Of a DNA stretch of 16,926 nt, positions 1,836 to 7,566 are shown one piece after another; within the stretch, counting starts at the first letter, position 1; each line of letters starts with the position of its first letter. The position numbers and the translations under genes are program-made. This DNA comes from a virus. The DNA is taken from the UHGV virus genome UHGV-2150566. One strand, given 5' to 3'. Under the pieces are notes generated by a model. That model had not been told where the DNA came from. It saw only the letters and a program-made list of their open reading frames with translations, and made no database searches.

Positions 1836-1840
1836 CTTTG

Positions 1841-1868
1841 TTGATTTTTCCCGAATCTGTGGTAAATT
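1841..1868 (+). promoter_or_regulatory. PR'-like late promoter (-35 TTGATT, 16-bp spacer, TG-extended -10 TAAATT); qut-like region just downstream
   Basis: gtggTAAATTtg...aatgatggg closely resembles the lambda PR' -10/pause region (gggTAAATTtgactcaacgatggg) as I recall it. Begins 6 nt after the Q stop. Confidence 0.5.
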
Positions 1869-1917
1869 TGCCCTAATGATGGGCGTTTTATGCCTGACGT
1901 TAGAAGATTTTTTACAC

Positions 1918-1940
1918 CCCGCCGCCTGGCGGGTTTTTTA
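1918..1940 (+). terminator. tR'-like rho-independent terminator
   Basis: Stem CCCGCC / GGCGGG (6 bp), loop GCCT, followed by TTTTTT; about 45-65 nt downstream of the predicted PR' start. Confidence 0.6.
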
Positions 1941-2061
1941 TGACTGAAATCGCGTCAGTACAGTAAACGCGCTGGTGGCGGTGAATACCTGTCTTTCAGC
2001 TTGCTGGCTTTTTCGACAAGAGTTATTGGTGTGTCACGTTAACCGGAAAAGGGAAAAAGAC

Positions 2062-2259
2062 ATGCTGAAACAGCAGGATATGACCGAAACCGCCAGAGTG
2101 GTGTTTAATGAATTAAGTGCCACCGAACCGGCGACAGTCGGGGAGATTGCGCAGAATACTTACCTTTCACGTGAACGCTGCCAGTTAATACTGACCCAGC
2201 TTGTTATGGCGGGGCTGGCAGACTATCAGTTCGGTTGTTACAGACGCCTTCAGTCCTGA
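2062..2259 (+). CDS. hypothetical small protein (65 aa), possible winged-helix DNA-binding fold
   Basis: ATG at 2062 with AGGGA about 8 nt upstream. The ORF track starts this frame at an upstream GTG (1975), which I consider less likely. Motif TVGEIAQNTYLSRERCQLILTQLVMAGL looks HTH-like. An intrinsic terminator overlaps the stop codon. Confidence 0.35.
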   Translation: MLKQQDMTETARVVFNELSATEPATVGEIAQNTYLSRERCQLILTQLVMAGLADYQFGCYRRLQS

Positions 2260-2272
2260 AGGCTTTTTTATT
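2246..2272 (+). terminator. rho-independent terminator
   Basis: Stem GCCTTCA / TGAAGGC (7 bp), loop GTCC, then TTTTTTATTT; overlaps the stop of the small ORF. Confidence 0.55.
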
Positions 2273-2429
2273 TGTGGTAAATGGGCGGCTGGTGGGTGTT
2301 AGGGGCACTCACCAGCCATCTGCTCATGCGTCCGGATCACAAGCAAACCTCAGGCCCACTGCTTTGCGCAAAAGCAGAATGAGCCTATCAGAGACAGGCT
2401 TAATGATCCATGCTTAGTACTGTAAAAAT

Positions 2430-2504
2430 NNNNNNNNNNNNNNNNNNNNNNNNNNNNNNNNNNNNNNNNNNNNNNNNNNNNNNNNNNNNNNNNNNNNNNN
2501 NNNN
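2430..2504. other. run of 75 N (assembly gap or masked sequence)
   Basis: Directly visible in the sequence. Interrupts the 5' end of the methyltransferase gene. Confidence 0.99.
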
Positions 2505-2510
2505 TTTAAA

Positions 2511-4701: not shown

Positions 4702-4756
4702 AACAGCATGAGATATACATTTTTATAATCGAATGGATTTTAACCAGAATTCATAA

Positions 4757-4781
4757 GGCTGCGCAACTGCGCGGCCTTTTT
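4757..4781 (+). terminator. rho-independent terminator (+ orientation) upstream of nanS-p
   Basis: Stem GGCTGCGC / GCGCGGCC (8 bp, one G-U), loop AACT, followed by TTTTT. Confidence 0.45.
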
Positions 4782-4883
4782 CGTATTGCGGGCTGTAGTC
4801 TTCCTCCTGCCATTGTCCTGTAACTTCCGGACTTCAGCCCGCCCCTCATCTGACTCACAACATTATCCCGACCGGGAGGATTC

Positions 4884-6872
4884 ATGACATTTAAACACTA
4901 CGATGTGGTCAGGGCGGCGTCGCCGTCAGACCTTGCGGAGCGACTGACACAAAAACTGAAGGAGGGGTGGCAGCCATTTGGCAGCCCTGTCGCCATCACG
5001 CCTTATACCCTGATGCAGGCCATTGCGGCGGAAGGTGATGTCACCACACCTGTGGTGGTGAAGCCGTCGGATGGAGAAGGCACAGTTATCAGCACCACCA
5101 GCGAACCGGAGTATTACTTTGTTGTTGTTCTGGCGGGGCAGTCAAACTCGATGTCTTTTGGGGAAGGGCTGCCGCTGCCGGAGACATATGACCGTCCGGA
5201 CCCGCGTATTAAACAGCTGGCGCGTCGCAGTACGGTGACGCCGGGTGGTGCCGCCTGTAAATATAACGACATCATTCCGGCAGACCACTGTCTGCATGAT
5301 GTGCAGGATATGAGTAACCTGAATCATCCTGAAGCGGACCTTAATAAAGGGCAGTACGGTTGTGTGGGGCATGCTCTGCATGTTGCCAAAAAGCTGCTGC
5401 CGTTTATGCCTGCGAATGCGGGTATCCTTCTTGTTCCATGTGGCCGTGGCGATTCGGGATTTACTGCGGGGGCCGAGGGGGCGTTTAACGCAGCGTCGGG
5501 AGCGACCGCAGGCTCGTCCCTGTGGGGGGCGGATAAACCGCTGTATTATGACCTGGTCAGCAGAACCCGTGCGGCCCTGAAGAAAAATCCGAAGAACGTG
5601 CTGTTATCAGTGATTTGGATGCAGGGAGAAAAAGATGTCAGTTCGGGGAGACATGCAGAACACAATGCGCTTTTCCTTGCCATGGTAAATCAGTTCCGTA
5701 CGGAACTGGCAGATGTGGCAGAGCAGTGTACTGGCGGGACAACGGCCAGCGTCCCGTGGATTTGCGGTGATACCACGTACTACTGGAAGGAAAGGTATGC
5801 AGCGCCGTATGAGGCGGTTTACGGTGGGTATAAAGGCAAAGCTGCGCAGAATATTCACTTTGTGCCGTTGATGACGGATGAGCATGGTGTGAATGTGCCG
5901 ACAAACGAGCCGTCAGAAGATCCGGACATTATCCCGGCGGGATACTATGGCGCTGCGTCACGCACTGCCAGTAACTGGACGTCAGCCGATCGTAAAACGC
6001 ACTTCAGTTCATGGGCGCGAAGAGGCATTGTTTCAGACCGCCTGGCAGGTGCCATTTTGCAGTACGCCGGGCGGACATTATCGTTCCTTACCGGGCAGAG
6101 CGCACCGCAGTCGGGTGGTACAACTCCCGGTGATGATGTCAGTCCGGGGGTACCGGGTGTTGAGAAACCGCAGGATGGCGGTGTTGCTGGTACTGGTCAT
6201 GATGAGGCCGTGAGCAGTACCAGGACGGTGGCTGAATATGATGCGAACAGTGGAAATGGTGTATGGACAGAGCAGCAGTGGGGGGCTGCCGGTGGCAAAG
6301 GCACTGTGACTGATGACGGTGGACGGAAAGCGCTGCGACTGGAAAAACAGCCCGGTAAACTGACGTCCTGGAAAATGTTCTGTACTGTTGCAGTGGAGGA
6401 GGCAAAAAATCTTCTCAGCAAGGGGGGTGAAATTGCCGTACGGTTCAAAATTCCGGATGGAAGCGAACTGGTGAACGGACAGTTTGTCTTTGGTCTCTAC
6501 TGGCCGGTGTCGCAGTGGGCGTCAGGCGCGGCAGCAAACAGTATGCTGGCATCATTCTTCCTTCAGACGGATGCATCAAATCTGAATCTTATGCACCACA
6601 AGGGCACGTCGAATGCACAACTGGGTACATTTGGTGCGTTTGACCATAACTGGCATACGGTTGTTTTCCGCTTTGCGGGAAATAACAGCGAAAGAGTCGT
6701 TCCGGTGATTGATGGTACAGAGCAGACGGCGTTTGACCTTGTGATGTGGACAAATGATGGCTTTACAGCAGATACGCTGACGCTGACAGATATCACGGGG
6801 GCAAAAGCGACGTATCCGGTACTGCTTGATACGGTCACAGTCAAAGTTAACGAAAGCCGGGCATCATCATAA
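4884..6872 (+). CDS. nanS-p: prophage-encoded sialate O-acetylesterase (NanS-p-like: N-terminal DUF1737-like region, SGNH/SASA esterase core, C-terminal putative carbohydrate-binding region)
   Basis: 662-aa ORF with RBS GGGAGG. N-terminus MTFKHYDVVRAASPSDLAE and esterase motif VVLAGQSNSMSFGEG match the NanS-p family found between the stx slot and lysis genes in EHEC prophages, as recalled. Confidence 0.8.
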   Translation: MTFKHYDVVRAASPSDLAERLTQKLKEGWQPFGSPVAITPYTLMQAIAAEGDVTTPVVVKPSDGEGTVISTTSEPEYYFVVVLAGQSNSMSFGEGLPLPETYDRPDPRIKQLARRSTVTPGGAACKYNDIIPADHCLHDVQDMSNLNHPEADLNKGQYGCVGHALHVAKKLLPFMPANAGILLVPCGRGDSGFTAGAEGAFNAASGATAGSSLWGADKPLYYDLVSRTRAALKKNPKNVLLSVIWMQGEKDVSSGRHAEHNALFLAMVNQFRTELADVAEQCTGGTTASVPWICGDTTYYWKERYAAPYEAVYGGYKGKAAQNIHFVPLMTDEHGVNVPTNEPSEDPDIIPAGYYGAASRTASNWTSADRKTHFSSWARRGIVSDRLAGAILQYAGRTLSFLTGQSAPQSGGTTPGDDVSPGVPGVEKPQDGGVAGTGHDEAVSSTRTVAEYDANSGNGVWTEQQWGAAGGKGTVTDDGGRKALRLEKQPGKLTSWKMFCTVAVEEAKNLLSKGGEIAVRFKIPDGSELVNGQFVFGLYWPVSQWASGAAANSMLASFFLQTDASNLNLMHHKGTSNAQLGTFGAFDHNWHTVVFRFAGNNSERVVPVIDGTEQTAFDLVMWTNDGFTADTLTLTDITGAKATYPVLLDTVTVKVNESRASS

Positions 6873-7010
6873 CCGGCAAAAAAAGCCGCCAGCGGCAGGA
6901 ACGGAAGCTGGCGGAGGTAATCCCAATGGAGAATGTAAAGAAAAGATGCTTTCGTATATCGGTTTTTAAATGAAAATAGTTCTCATTGTCAACCATAACG
7001 GTAAGAAACT

Positions 7011-7205
7011 ATGACATTTGTTCATCAGGTGATGCTGTACTTCTGTACGGCGGTCTGTGTGCTGTATCTTCTTTCGGGTGGGTACAGGGCAGTGCGCGAT
7101 TTCTGGCGCAGGCAGATTGATAAAAGGGCCGCAGAGAAAATCAGCGCCAGTCAGTCAGCCGGAGCAAAAACAGAAGCCCCACTCATTCCGGAACAACCTT
7201 CTTAA
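7011..7205 (+). CDS. hypothetical small membrane protein (64 aa)
   Basis: ORF with hydrophobic N-terminal segment VMLYFCTAVCVLYLLSGG; weak RBS. Fits the gap between nanS-p and the next ORF. Low support. Confidence 0.3.
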   Translation: MTFVHQVMLYFCTAVCVLYLLSGGYRAVRDFWRRQIDKRAAEKISASQSAGAKTEAPLIPEQPS

Positions 7206-7230
7206 TAACCCCTTTCAACGAGAAAATCCT

Positions 7231-7521
7231 ATGTCAGAAATAAAATCGCTGGTCACTGCTGAGGCAGTGAAGGAAGTCCTGCGCTCTGAAGAAGTCCGGA
7301 GCGCACTGAAACAGCAACTTCGGCAGAACCTTGAGGCGCGTCTTGATGCAGAAGTGGATGCCATTCTGGATGAATTGCTTGGTGCACAGCCGGAACCATC
7401 CCCGGAACTGCTTCCGGAACCACAGGCGGAAGATGTCACCACGGAAAATGGTGATATTCAGCCGGAGTCACCGGTGACGGATATGACAGACACACAACCC
7501 GAACCGGGCACAATGCTGTAA
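7231..7521 (+). CDS. hypothetical small, highly acidic protein (96 aa)
   Basis: ATG at 7231 in frame within ORF-track entry 7057..7521; the upstream part of that frame overlaps the 7011 ORF. Helical-looking N-terminus, Pro/Glu-rich C-terminus, roughly 20 acidic versus 7 basic residues by my count. A strong terminator follows. Confidence 0.45.
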   Translation: MSEIKSLVTAEAVKEVLRSEEVRSALKQQLRQNLEARLDAEVDAILDELLGAQPEPSPELLPEPQAEDVTTENGDIQPESPVTDMTDTQPEPGTML

Positions 7522-7532
7522 CGGCGGGGCAG

Positions 7533-7566
7533 GGCCATCAGTAAAACACTGATGGCCTTTTTTATT
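7533..7566 (+). terminator. strong rho-independent terminator upstream of the lysis cassette
   Basis: Perfect 10-bp stem GGCCATCAGT / ACTGATGGCC, loop AAAAC, followed by TTTTTTATTT. Confidence 0.7.

What the first reader, a model, noticed from the sequence alone, without database searches (positions are those of the whole stretch)
1836..7566. Stx-less cargo island in the Q-to-lysis slot: MTase, tRNAs, TolA-mimic, NanS-p esterase, each individually insulated
Between Q and the holin lie about 5.7 kb unrelated to phage propagation: a small wHTH-like ORF, an amino-methyltransferase, two tRNAs with their own promoter-like element, the TolA-domain gene, a NanS-p esterase and two small ORFs. Intrinsic terminators punctuate it (1918-1940, 2246-2272, 4757-4781, 7533-7566, plus minus-orientation ones). 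This is the architecture Stx phages use for stxAB, but the toxin genes are absent. The terminators suggest each cargo gene is expressed on its own in the lysogen and also boosted by Q read-through during induction.
Basis: partly seen in the sequence, partly recalled or inferred. Interest (0 to 1): 0.6.

Follow-up and report, generated by a model that had tools for sequence, protein, structure and literature searches.

The report
Toxin-less Shiga-type prophage cargo region
This is the ordinary, already described "late-gene cargo slot" of Shiga-toxin-type E. coli prophages, here holding an uncharacterised small lipoprotein that copies the end domain of the cell-envelope protein TolA where related phages carry the toxin genes.

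Summary
The region is the standard Q-to-holin late segment of E. coli lambdoid prophages. A Stx2a phage (LC567834) is 95-97% identical from rusA to the second tRNA. It then carries a third tRNA plus stx2AB where the window has a 0.73-kb, low-GC cassette encoding a 142-aa TolA-domain-III lipoprotein.

The same MTase-tRNA-slot-esterase scaffold matches 3749 of 5426 complete E. coli genomes, with varied or no slot cargo. Published work already covers this layout (Tree 2014; Pascal 2023).

"Each gene individually insulated" fails. No forward terminator follows the MTase, the tRNAs, the TolA-like gene or nanS-p.

"Unrelated to propagation" is also doubtful, because the esterase's DUF1737 domain decorates the phi24B capsid.

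The N-run is collinear in 19 complete genomes. However, the DUF826/holin junction (7363-7545) and a 3.5-kb terminase/portal gap are not seen elsewhere.

The one open lead is the TolA-III lipoprotein. It is under purifying selection, has no literature that I found, and may act as a colicin/filamentous-phage decoy or as a Tol-Pal antagonist.

The parts
1014..1835 (+). Q antiterminator, 273 aa, QuuQ type (left border of the slot)
   Evidence: Pfam PF03589, E 5e-52. The same 273-aa Q type occurs in Stx2a phage Stx2_EH1910 and in the strain 00-3076 Stx2a prophage (PMC10462455).
1841..1868 (+). pR'-like late promoter: TTGATT, 16-nt spacer, TGgTAAATT (extended -10)
   Evidence: Read directly from the sequence. 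Conserved in all QuuQ-type relatives (L001, L002, L003, L017) and replaced by unrelated sequence behind PF06530-type Q genes. Function is inferred.
1918..1940 (+). tR'-like intrinsic terminator ending a leader RNA of about 65 nt
   Evidence: Hairpin CCCGCCGCCTGGCGGG plus T6, -12.6 kcal/mol. The hairpin is conserved even behind a different Q family.
2062..2259 (+). 65-aa winged-helix protein (phrog_331; PGAP name 'TrmB family'), the first ORF after tR'
   Evidence: AlphaFold pLDDT 90 with an H-H-H-beta-hairpin layout. Foldseek TM 0.7-0.8 to wH domains. 80-100% identical across E. coli, Salmonella, Klebsiella and Citrobacter.
2246..2272 (+). Intrinsic terminator overlapping the stop codon of the wH ORF
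   Evidence: -10.5 kcal/mol, z -3.6. Conserved, with one stem variant, in relatives.
2410..3449 (+). Orphan N6/N4 DNA methyltransferase (352 aa in relatives), with the 5' part hidden by the N-run 2430-2504
   Evidence: PF01555, E 1.6e-37. PADLOC MTase_II, E 9e-140. The N-run stands for 94 bp of L001 and both flanks are collinear.
3490..3565 (+). tRNA with anticodon CAT (tRNA-Ile2 / ileZ type)
   Evidence: ARAGORN. Rfam, 72.5 bits. RefSeq annotates the homologue as tRNA-Ile.
3575..3651 (+). tRNA-Arg (anticodon TCG)
   Evidence: ARAGORN. Rfam, 55.1 bits.
3673..4402 (.). TolA-like cassette, the slot occupant. It replaces the third tRNA plus stx2AB of Stx2_EH1910, or the third tRNA alone of an empty-slot O157 prophage.
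   Evidence: blastn junctions. GC 41-45% against 50-55% in the flanks. Present at >=95% identity in 123 of 5426 complete genomes.
3930..4358 (+). 142-aa predicted outer-membrane lipoprotein: signal peptide with Cys20 lipobox, a disordered linker of about 33 residues, then a TolA domain III
   Evidence: PF06519, E 6e-23. PDB TolA, E 1.6e-25; 51% identity to the TolA 333-421 fragment. The model matches TolAIII at TMt 0.76-0.82. Both Cys residues and the beta3 LDFK motif are kept. dN/dS is 0.31-0.36 against the second subtype.
4465..4674 (+). STnc100 / PasD-related sRNA gene with its own terminator (4644-4663)
   Evidence: Rfam RF02076, 179 bits, E 2e-41. Terminator -17.3 kcal/mol. Occupies the same position in the Stx2 phage and in the empty-slot prophage.
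4679..4731 (-). AsxR/AgvB-family anti-sRNA gene, convergent with STnc100
   Evidence: Rfam RF02703, 63.0 bits (gathering score 63), E 4e-8. Terminator -11.1 kcal/mol. The architecture is described in PMC4104026.
4755..4781 (+). Strong forward hairpin plus T-run upstream of nanS-p
   Evidence: -18.3 kcal/mol, z -4.9. Resembles the PasD2 terminator of E2348/69.
4884..6872 (+). NanS-p-type sialate O-acetylesterase (DUF1737 + SASA + DUF6645)
   Evidence: Pfam. Annotated yjhS / SASA esterase in relatives. DUF1737 is a capsid-decoration domain in phi24B (bioRxiv 10.64898/2026.04.10.717836).
7011..7205 (+). DUF1378 small protein
   Evidence: PF07125, E 4.5e-35.
7231..7521 (+). DUF826 small protein
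   Evidence: PF05696, E 7e-29.
7531..7566 (+). Intrinsic terminator immediately upstream of the holin gene
   Evidence: -19.4 kcal/mol, z -5.3. A hairpin plus T-run is kept at this position, with differing sequence, in five lineages.
7598..7813 (+). P21-type (class II) holin, the right border of the slot
   Evidence: PF04971, E 5e-35.

Best explanation
Window 1836-7566 is the Q-dependent late-operon leader and accessory segment of a 933W/phi24B-type lambdoid prophage, built from independently assorting modules.

Proposed transcription (inferred from the lambda/82/933W paradigm):
- A constitutive pR'-like promoter (1841-1868) makes a leader of about 65 nt that stops at tR' (1918-1940).
- On induction, Q (1014-1835) makes RNA polymerase terminator-resistant.
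- The polymerase then reads through every forward terminator (2246, 4644, 4755, 7531) into the lysis and virion genes.

What the late transcript carries:
- a conserved winged-helix protein;
- an orphan methyltransferase;
- two rare-codon tRNAs;
- the slot cargo;
- the NanS-p esterase, which is probably virion-associated;
- DUF1378 and DUF826.

Independent units: STnc100 and the AsxR-like anti-sRNA form a convergent, self-terminated pair that is probably active in the lysogen.

Slot cargo: a 0.73-kb low-GC cassette encodes an outer-membrane-anchored copy of TolA domain III, where sister phages carry argO + stx2AB. The most likely action of this protein (inference, about 45%) is as a decoy. It would offer the same beta-strand-addition surfaces that TolB, colicins A and N, and filamentous-phage g3p use on real TolA, and so make the lysogen tolerant to Tol-dependent colicins and Ff-type phages.

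The terminator in front of the holin most plausibly protects the lysis genes from Q-independent transcription starting in the cargo region.
For: Shown here:
- Gene identities.
- 95-97% identity to a bona fide Stx2a phage up to the slot, with mapped junctions at 3672/3673 and 4435/4436.
- An empty-slot O157 prophage with the order tRNA-STnc100-AgvB-esterase, with junctions at 3672 and 4403.
- The scaffold matches 3749 of 5426 complete genomes, with slot contents Stx2a, Stx2c + IraM, TolA-like, DUF3927, TerB, an extra MTase, or nothing.
- Modules are present or absent independently in L003, L005, L008, L017 and L018.
- The promoter and leader co-vary with the Q type, while tR' and the wH ORF do not.
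- Terminator energies, and a conserved terminator in front of the holin.

TolA-like protein:
- TolAIII fold, both disulfide Cys kept, and Cys20 nearly invariant across the wider family.
- Thr at position +2, so no Lol-avoidance Asp.
- Beta3 LDFK (TolA 417-420) is identical. The ColA site LLDIKP reads LLQVKR, with K379 and K396 kept and K368 changed to Y (read against PMC4339652 and PMC3365938).
- dN/dS 0.31-0.36.
- Carried by the sequenced phage mEp460 at the same place.

Literature:
- Moron slot with a convergent sRNA pair 3' of pR' (PMC4104026).
- Q-S region diversity, and nanS-p induced together with the phage (PMC10462455).
- Periplasmic TolAIII expression is used to release periplasmic protein into the medium (PMC6195910, whose reference list includes Levengood-Freyermuth 1993 and Wan & Baneyx 1998). 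Colicin tolerance from this construct is my recollection of the 1993 paper, which I could not open.
Against: - No transcript data exist for this element. The promoter calls are consensus matches only, and the region has fewer promoter-like sites than shuffled sequence (4 against 7.7).
- The QuuQ-type Q and its qut site have not been dissected, as far as I know.
- The decoy role of the TolA-like protein is untested. One of the three ColA cation-pi lysines is lost. An outer-membrane-tethered TolAIII could instead titrate TolB and weaken the envelope.
- The gene has no terminator of its own, and its predicted promoter (3770-3799) matches only 9 of 12 positions.
- As assembled, the prophage lacks most of the large terminase subunit and the whole portal gene, so it may not be inducible to particles.
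Confidence: 0.85

Rival explanations
1. One reading: every cargo gene is a separately insulated unit with its own promoter and terminator. Each would be expressed on its own in the lysogen and merely boosted by Q.
For: - Terminator-like sites are enriched (16 against 8.2 +/- 3.0), and five forward ones are strong.
- Promoter-like hexamers precede the tRNAs (3452-3480) and the TolA-like gene (3770-3799).
- The sRNA homologues are expressed in lysogens (PMC4104026, PMC8550237).
Against: - No forward terminator follows the MTase, the tRNAs, the TolA-like CDS or nanS-p.
- The strong forward terminators leave MTase-tRNAs-TolA-like-STnc100 as one block and nanS-p-DUF1378-DUF826 as another.
- One forward hairpin (4644-4663) and one minus-strand hairpin (4701-4684) belong to the sRNA genes.
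- Promoter-like sites are not enriched.
- nanS-p expression follows phage induction (PMC10462455).
Confidence: 0.15
2. The arrangement is an assembly chimera: pieces of two co-resident lambdoid prophages were joined at shared repeats or at the N-run.
For: - Against the closest complete genome (SW071611), window 1-7545 follows prophage A. Positions 7363-16045 follow prophage B, which lies 475 kb away in the opposite orientation.
- The switch falls in a 180-bp stretch that is near-identical in both prophages (one difference from prophage B, at 7472).
- Positions 10710/10711 skip 3.5 kb of terminase and portal.
- No complete genome holds 6900-8100 at better than 95.3% identity.
- All ten listed contexts of the A-type DUF826 gene (24 contigs read) have a DUF1327 gene between the DUF826 gene and the lysozyme gene, and nine of them also show a called holin.
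Against: - The flagged region itself is identical, bar 3 differences and an 18-difference patch at 7052-7210, to one contiguous prophage in several complete genomes, N-run flanks included. The Q-to-DUF826 layout is therefore real.
- Recombination between co-resident lambdoid prophages is common and would give the same picture.
- Whichever holin follows, the architecture is the same.
Confidence: 0.2
3. The TolA-like lipoprotein does not protect the lysogen. It is a late-expressed antagonist of Tol-Pal: by titrating the TolB N-terminus at the outer membrane it loosens the envelope. That would aid lysis, vesiculation or release of periplasmic content during induction.
For: - The gene lies inside the Q-dependent late transcript, just upstream of the lysis cassette, and has no terminator of its own.
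- The TolB/g3p/ColN binding strand LDFK is identical to that of TolA (PMC4339652).
- Periplasmic TolAIII overproduction is used to release periplasmic protein (PMC6195910).
- Proline mutations that block TolA-TolB binding give a full tol phenotype (PMC4339652).
Against: - The lysis cassette (holin, endolysin, Rz) is complete without it.
- Related short TolAIII lipoproteins sit in housekeeping chromosomal contexts in other Enterobacterales. That argues for a function tolerated in growing cells.
- The leaky phenotypes were obtained with overproduction.
Confidence: 0.25
4. The element is a decayed former Stx phage that lost stxAB by deletion. On this view the TolA-like gene is a meaningless remnant of host tolA.
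For: Near-identity of the left arm to a Stx2a phage. The third tRNA is absent together with stx.
Against: - The slot holds 730 bp of unrelated, lower-GC DNA rather than a deletion scar.
- The protein is only 51% identical to TolA and has gained a signal peptide and lipobox.
- dN/dS is about 0.3.
- Two subtypes occur across 895 genomes and in phage mEp460.
- Stx-less scaffolds far outnumber Stx-bearing ones.
Confidence: 0.05

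Closest known systems
Q-S late region of Stx2a phages with the 273-aa Q and 352-aa methylase (Stx2_EH1910, LC567834; strain 00-3076 type; Pascal et al. 2023, PMC10462455)
   Same: - Same gene order: rusA, Q, 65-aa ORF, MTase, tRNA-Ile2, tRNA-Arg, slot, STnc100, nanS-p, DUF1378, DUF826, holin.
- 95-97% DNA identity from 901 to 3672, 83% over STnc100, and 71-80% over nanS-p to the lysozyme gene.
   Different: - The window has no third tRNA (argO) and no stx2AB. A TolA-III lipoprotein cassette sits there instead.
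- An AsxR-like anti-sRNA stands where that phage has an iraM-like gene.
Moron site 3' of pR' with a convergent sRNA pair in EHEC prophages (Tree et al. 2014, PMC4104026): EcOnc27/STnc100-like plus the AsxR/AgvB anti-sRNAs
   Same: The moron CDS is followed by a forward sRNA and a reverse anti-sRNA of about 53 nt, upstream of the conserved esterase ORF. Rfam matches both.
   Different: - The 5' variable (target-selecting) part differs from the AsxR consensus at 4 of the first 17 nt.
- Pairing with FnrS could not be shown.
- The moron is not a toxin.
E. coli TolA domain III (PDB 1S62, 3QDP, 3QDR, 1TOL, 2X9A)
   Same: - 51% identity to the TolA 333-421 fragment, and the same fold (TMt 0.76-0.82).
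- Disulfide cysteines kept, C-terminal beta3 LDFK identical, K379 and K396 kept.
   Different: - Lacks TolA domain I (the membrane anchor that couples to TolQR) and the long helical domain II.
- Has a lipoprotein signal instead, so it cannot transduce proton-motive force.
- K368 is Tyr. The RefSeq name 'TolA' is an over-annotation.
Phage mEp460 and APEC-type prophages (e.g. strain AH25), which carry TolA-like genes between Q and the holin
   Same: - Same family (67% amino-acid identity) in the same Q-to-holin interval.
- Behind the same Q type, leader and tRNAs.
   Different: - There the gene lies downstream of STnc100 and is followed by a second TolA-C-terminal paralogue.
- There is no MTase, no wH ORF and no esterase.
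- The signal peptide and upstream DNA are unrelated.
Classical lambdoid lysogenic-conversion morons and exclusion lipoproteins (lambda bor/lom; phi80/N15 Cor; T5 Llp). This comparison rests on my own knowledge.
   Same: A small envelope protein encoded in the late region of a temperate phage. Receptor or import-pathway blockade is a plausible benefit to the lysogen.
   Different: Those proteins act on outer-membrane receptors such as FhuA. A mimic of the periplasmic energy-transducer domain has not, to my knowledge, been described.

Membership tests
Lambdoid Q-dependent late operon (Q, pR', tR', accessory genes, S-R-Rz) | Q antiterminator gene directly upstream | tested here: met
   PF03589, E 5e-52, at 1014-1835.
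Lambdoid Q-dependent late operon (Q, pR', tR', accessory genes, S-R-Rz) | Promoter plus an intrinsic terminator within about 100 nt downstream of Q. The promoter and leader co-vary with the Q type. | tested here: met
   TTGATT-16-TGgTAAATT at 1841-1868 and a hairpin plus T6 at 1918-1940. The leader changes with the Q family while tR' is kept. These are sequence patterns only.
Lambdoid Q-dependent late operon (Q, pR', tR', accessory genes, S-R-Rz) | Holin-endolysin-Rz cassette downstream on the same strand | tested here: met
   PF04971, PF00959 and PF03245 at 7598-9117.
Lambdoid Q-dependent late operon (Q, pR', tR', accessory genes, S-R-Rz) | Q-dependent read-through of the terminators | not testable with these tools
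   Needs transcript mapping or in vitro transcription.
Stx-converting phage | stxA and stxB between the tRNAs and nanS-p | tested here: not met
   No stx ORF. The interval 3673-4435 holds the TolA-like cassette instead of L002 4194-5638.
Moron (independent insertion in a phage late region) | Present in some but absent from otherwise collinear relatives, with sharp junctions | tested here: met
   Junctions at 3672/3673 and at 4402/4403 or 4435/4436 against the empty-slot and Stx2 relatives.
Moron (independent insertion in a phage late region) | Base composition different from the flanks | tested here: met
   GC 0.41-0.45 over 3501-4500 against 0.52-0.55 in the flanks. Rare codons ATA/AGA/AGG/CGA make up 6.3% of codons, the highest in the region.
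Moron (independent insertion in a phage late region) | Own promoter and own terminator | tested here: inconclusive
   A promoter-like site at 3770-3799 matches 9 of 12 positions. There is no terminator between the stop codon (4358) and STnc100.
TolA (Tol-Pal system protein; TIGR02794) | N-terminal transmembrane domain I that couples to TolQ-TolR | tested here: not met
   The 142-aa protein has only a signal peptide and lipobox at its N-terminus. The NCBIfam match covers model positions 266-361 of 362 only.
TolA (Tol-Pal system protein; TIGR02794) | Long helical domain II | tested here: not met
   Residues 21-53 form a short linker predicted to be disordered.
TolA (Tol-Pal system protein; TIGR02794) | C-terminal domain III fold with its disulfide | tested here: met
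   PF06519, E 6e-23. PDB TolA, E 1.6e-25. Foldseek TMt 0.76-0.82. Cys84 and Cys109 are invariant.
AsxR/AgvB anti-sRNA (Rfam RF02703/RF02702) | Covariance-model score at or above the gathering threshold | tested here: met
   63.0 bits against a threshold of 63, E 4e-8, full length 1-53. The score sits exactly on the threshold.
AsxR/AgvB anti-sRNA (Rfam RF02703/RF02702) | Convergent with a forward sRNA, between the moron CDS and the conserved ORF | tested here: met
   STnc100 at 4465-4674 (+) faces 4731-4679 (-), 4 nt apart. The layout is that of PMC4104026.
AsxR/AgvB anti-sRNA (Rfam RF02703/RF02702) | 5' region pairs with the FnrS terminator loop (AsxR) or mimics the GcvB target CACAACA (AgvB) | tested here: inconclusive
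   There is no CACAACA motif. The duplex with FnrS is -8.7 kcal/mol at a different site, against -12.2 for the AsxR consensus. Neither value beats shuffled controls.
NanS-p prophage sialate O-acetylesterase | DUF1737 + SASA catalytic domain + C-terminal lectin-like domain, located between the stx slot and S | tested here: met
   PF08410, PF03629 and PF20350 in a 662-aa ORF at 4884-6872.
NanS-p prophage sialate O-acetylesterase | Esterase activity on 5-N-acetyl-9-O-acetyl neuraminic acid | not testable with these tools
   Needs an enzyme assay.

The most novel reading that the evidence does not exclude
The slot cargo would be a new kind of lysogenic-conversion or exclusion factor. It would be an outer-membrane-tethered mimic of TolA domain III that intercepts the TolA-binding segments of group A colicins (A, N, K, E1) and the g3p of filamentous phages as they enter the periplasm. 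Alternatively it would retune TolB-Pal.

This would be a prophage-borne representative of a widespread, unstudied family of stand-alone TolAIII lipoproteins in Enterobacterales. It sits in the same slot that sister phages use for Shiga toxin.
Probability: 0.3. Interest if true: 0.6.

Novelty: new member of a known kind. Interest (0 to 1): 0.27.

Why it matters
The architecture teaches nothing new. It is the textbook moron slot of Stx-type phages, it is present in most E. coli genomes, and its sRNAs, esterase and Q-S diversity are published.

Its practical value is as a clean natural "allele swap". The same Q-MTase-tRNA scaffold carries either Shiga toxin or a TolA-domain lipoprotein, so the cassette boundaries of the stx slot are defined to within about ten bases at the left junction (3672/3673) and a few tens of bases at the right one (4402-4436).

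The one piece worth an experiment is the TolA-III lipoprotein. If it protects lysogens from Tol-dependent colicins or filamentous phages, it would be a new exclusion mechanism: mimicry of the import machinery rather than blockade of a receptor. It occurs in about 16% of complete E. coli genomes, including APEC/ExPEC prophages that also carry iss. It would also correct a systematic RefSeq mis-naming ("TolA").

Tried and rejected
1. PasA/PasC homology. I extracted PasA and PasD2 from E2348/69 using the coordinates in the PMC8550237 supplement. PasA has no BLAST similarity to the window. The minus-strand hairpin at 6898-6886 is only a positional analogue and is weak (-5.8 kcal/mol, z 0), so I do not claim a PasA-type sRNA.
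2. FnrS targeting by the AsxR-like RNA. The duplex energies do not beat shuffled controls, even for the AsxR consensus. The method does not discriminate, so I draw no conclusion.
3. tRNA-cargo codon matching. The TolA-like gene is rich in ATA (4), AGA (3) and AGG (2) but has no CGA. The AGA/AGG-reading third tRNA is the one that is missing, so there is no special tRNA-cargo fit beyond AUA.
4. Literature on a prophage-encoded TolA-like protein. Four full-text searches gave nothing relevant. The library lacks most subscription journals, and Levengood-Freyermuth 1993 could not be opened.
5. Looking for the window's DUF826/holin junction elsewhere. It was not found in 5426 complete genomes or in the 24 longest contigs carrying the same DUF826 protein. 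Only 24 of 573 index blocks were read.
6. Searches that needed a second attempt. 
7. PADLOC. There is no defence-system model for the TolA-like, DUF1378, DUF826 or esterase proteins.

Full report
**What is there.** The window is the late region of an E. coli lambdoid prophage.
- Pfam identifies a 273-aa Q antiterminator (PF03589) at 1014-1835.
- It also identifies a P21-type holin at 7598-7813, followed by lysozyme and Rz.
- The 65-aa ORF (2062-2259) is modelled as a winged helix: pLDDT 90 and TM 0.7-0.8 to wH domains.
- The N6/N4 methyltransferase really starts at 2410 and is interrupted by the 75-N run at 2430-2504.
- There is a CAT-anticodon tRNA, which RefSeq calls tRNA-Ile in relatives, and a tRNA-Arg(TCG).
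- The remaining genes are a 142-aa TolA-C-terminal-domain protein, a DUF1737-SASA-DUF6645 esterase of the NanS-p kind, DUF1378 and DUF826.

- Rfam finds two sRNA genes in the "empty" 525 bp between the TolA-like gene and the esterase.
- They are STnc100 (4465-4674, +, 179 bits) and an AsxR-family anti-sRNA (4731-4679, -, 63.0 bits, exactly at the threshold).
- They are convergent, and each has its own terminator: 4644-4663 (+) and 4701-4684 (-).
- Tree et al. 2014 described exactly this layout for EHEC prophages, including the Stx2 phage Sp5: a moron CDS 3' of pR', then convergent sRNAs, then a conserved ORF (PMC4104026).
- Zhu et al. 2026 relate STnc100 to the PasD sRNAs of EPEC prophages.

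**Comparison with Stx phages.** The best phage match is Stx2a phage Stx2_EH1910 (LC567834), which has the same Q type.
- Its order is rusA, quuQ, 66-aa ORF, methylase, three tRNAs, stx2A, stx2B, iraM-like, yjhS, two small ORFs, holin.
- blastn places window 901-3672 on it at 95-97% identity.
- Homology stops 8 nt into its third tRNA and resumes at window 4436, 46 nt past stx2B, at the start of STnc100.
- Window 3673-4435 therefore replaces argO + stx2AB.
- An O157:H7 prophage with an empty slot goes straight from that third tRNA to STnc100, AgvB and the esterase. Against it the insert is 3673-4402.
- The cassette is lower in GC (0.41-0.45) than its flanks.

**How common it is.**
- The MTase-tRNA-slot-esterase scaffold matches 3749 of 5426 complete E. 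coli genomes, with up to 16 places per genome.
- In sampled hits the slot holds Stx2a, Stx2c + IraM, the TolA-like gene, DUF3927, TerB, another MTase, or nothing.
- Pascal et al. 2023 already catalogued the Q-S region of 59 Stx2a phages, including the 273-aa Q / 352-aa methylase type, DUF1378 and DUF826. They showed that nanS-p rises under inducing conditions.
- The architecture is therefore known and ordinary.

**Modules and terminators.**
- Relatives show each block present or absent independently:
  - L008: Q(PF06530), wH ORF, esterase.
  - mEp460: Q, leader, tRNAs, STnc100, two TolA-like genes, holin.
  - E2348/69: Q, DUF3927, PasD2, esterase, PasA, holin.
- The promoter and leader (1836-1917) co-vary with the Q family, as expected for a Q-specific qut site. 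The tR' hairpin and the wH ORF are shared across Q families.
- A terminator just before the holin is kept, with different sequence, in five lineages.
- No forward terminator follows the MTase, the tRNAs, the TolA-like CDS or nanS-p. "Each individually insulated" is therefore wrong.
- The strong forward terminators define these blocks:
  - the leader;
  - the wH ORF;
  - MTase-tRNAs-TolA-like-STnc100;
  - nanS-p-DUF1378-DUF826.

**Cargo versus phage function.**
- A 2026 cryo-EM preprint shows that the DUF1737 N-terminus of the phi24B NanS-p homologue is a capsid decoration protein.
- The window's esterase has that domain, and its virion module has the N4-gp56-type capsid and SU10-type adaptor.
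- The 65-aa wH protein is 80-100% conserved across several enterobacterial genera, which does not look like optional cargo.

**The TolA-like protein.**
- Residues 54-141 align with E. coli TolA 333-420 (E 1.6e-25) and are 51% identical to the TolA 333-421 fragment. The model matches solved TolAIII at TMt 0.76-0.82.
- Residues 1-53 are a signal peptide ending in an LTTG-C lipobox, followed by a disordered linker. Cys20 is invariant in full-length close relatives. Residue +2 is Thr, which predicts outer-membrane sorting.
- The beta3 strand LDFK (TolA 417-420) is where TolB, colicin N and g3p bind by strand addition (PMC4339652). It is identical in the prophage protein.
- The colicin A site, LLDIKP in TolA, reads LLQVKR here. 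K379 and K396 are kept and K368 is Tyr (PMC3365938).
- dN/dS against the second subtype is 0.31-0.36.
- The exact cassette is in 123 complete genomes. An 81%-identical subtype is in about 770 more, for example APEC AH25, where it sits beside a second TolA-C-terminal gene and near iss.
- One sequenced phage, mEp460, carries it.
- RefSeq's name "TolA" comes from a TIGR02794 hit that covers only the last 96 model positions. Domains I and II are absent, so this is not a TolA orthologue.
- PADLOC has no model for it, and I found no paper on it.
- An exhaustive HMMER search shows many short (115-160 aa) lipobox + TolAIII proteins.
- In Scandinavium and Dryocola these sit in housekeeping chromosomal contexts.
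- Periplasmic TolAIII expression is used to make E. coli release periplasmic protein (PMC6195910). That paper cites Levengood-Freyermuth 1993 and Wan & Baneyx 1998.
- I therefore favour a decoy for Tol-dependent colicins and Ff phages (about 45%) over a late-acting Tol-Pal antagonist (about 25%). Both are inferences.

**Assembly caveats.**
- The N-run is harmless. Both flanks are collinear with one prophage in 19 complete genomes, and the run stands for 94 bp.
- Against strain SW071611, window 1-7545 follows prophage A, with 3 differences plus an 18-difference patch at 7052-7210.
- Positions 7363-16045 follow a second, oppositely oriented prophage B at 99.9% identity, with the switch falling in 7363-7545.
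- The window also skips 3.5 kb of B, covering most of the large terminase and the portal, at 10710/10711.
- Neither join was found in other genomes.
- This is either real inter-prophage recombination plus a deletion, or mis-assembly. It does not change the Q-to-DUF826 reading.

**Verdict.** The system is known, and the only novelty is the uncharacterised TolA-III lipoprotein in the stx slot.

Noticed in passing
window 7363-7545: Recombination or assembly junction. To the left the window matches prophage A of E. coli SW071611 (2.92 Mb). To the right it matches prophage B of the same strain (2.445 Mb, opposite orientation) at 99.9%. No complete genome has this join; the best match over 6900-8100 is 95.3%.
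   Followed up: partly
window 10710-10711 (ORF 10251-10760): Relative to prophage B, 3.5 kb is missing, covering most of the large terminase subunit and the whole portal gene. What remains is a 169-aa terminase fragment joined directly to the phrog_479 and capsid genes. The prophage is either packaging-defective or mis-joined.
   Followed up: partly
L004 (E. coli STEC434) 7778-8757 and 5807-6019: Five STnc100 copies lie in one Q-S region, four of them in a head-to-tail array just upstream of the esterase gene.
   Followed up: no
L001 12181-12507; L009 6931-7257; L011 7845-8168; L013 7848-8174: TolA-like-bearing prophages of this type in four genomes also encode a 107-108-aa TonB C-terminal-domain protein just after the Rz and lysis genes. 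One prophage therefore carries stand-alone copies of the end domains of both envelope energy transducers. This gene is absent from the window, whose right arm is of the other prophage type.
   Followed up: no
L003 6533-6907; L017 4580-4975: In APEC strain AH25 and in phage mEp460, the TolA-like lipoprotein gene is followed by a second, more divergent TolA-C-terminal-domain gene. In AH25 the serum-survival gene iss lies just after the lysis cassette.
   Followed up: no
L020 4992-5399 (Scandinavium); L055 4995-5375 (Dryocola); proteins P0161-P0286: There is a widespread family of 115-160-aa lipoproteins made of a lipobox, a linker (often with a VDDLF/VDELL motif) and a TolA domain III. In other Enterobacterales they sit in housekeeping chromosomal contexts (ClC channel with OpuA; yaiW-ddlA). 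I found no name or literature for the family.
   Followed up: partly
window 3930-4358 and RefSeq homologues (WP_000271631.1 etc.): RefSeq/PGAP names these 142-aa proteins 'cell envelope integrity protein TolA' and gives them the gene symbol tolA. The cause is a TIGR02794 equivalog hit that covers only model positions 266-361 of 362, so this is an over-annotation.
   Followed up: yes
window 4755-4778: This strong forward hairpin resembles the terminator of PasD2 in E2348/69. It also overlaps the apparent -35 (TTGCGC) of the promoter of the minus-strand anti-sRNA, so one element may serve both strands.
   Followed up: no
window 1908-1945 versus L008, L012, L014, L015: The tR' hairpin and the following wH ORF are conserved behind two unrelated Q families (PF03589 and PF06530). 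The promoter and leader upstream are completely different. The module junction therefore lies just 5' of tR'.
   Followed up: yes
window 9579-9648 and 15579-15643; 15501-16500: There are short tandem repeats inside the small-terminase gene (12/24-nt unit) and at the start of a 282-aa ORF (phrog_2481). The latter region has unusually high GC (0.59-0.66) and AT skew (+0.36 to +0.46).
   Followed up: no
window 6876-6905 (minus strand): A hairpin plus T7 lies on the minus strand right after the nanS-p stop codon, at the position where EPEC prophages encode the antisense sRNA PasA. There is no sequence similarity to PasA and the hairpin is weak (-5.8 kcal/mol).
   Followed up: yes
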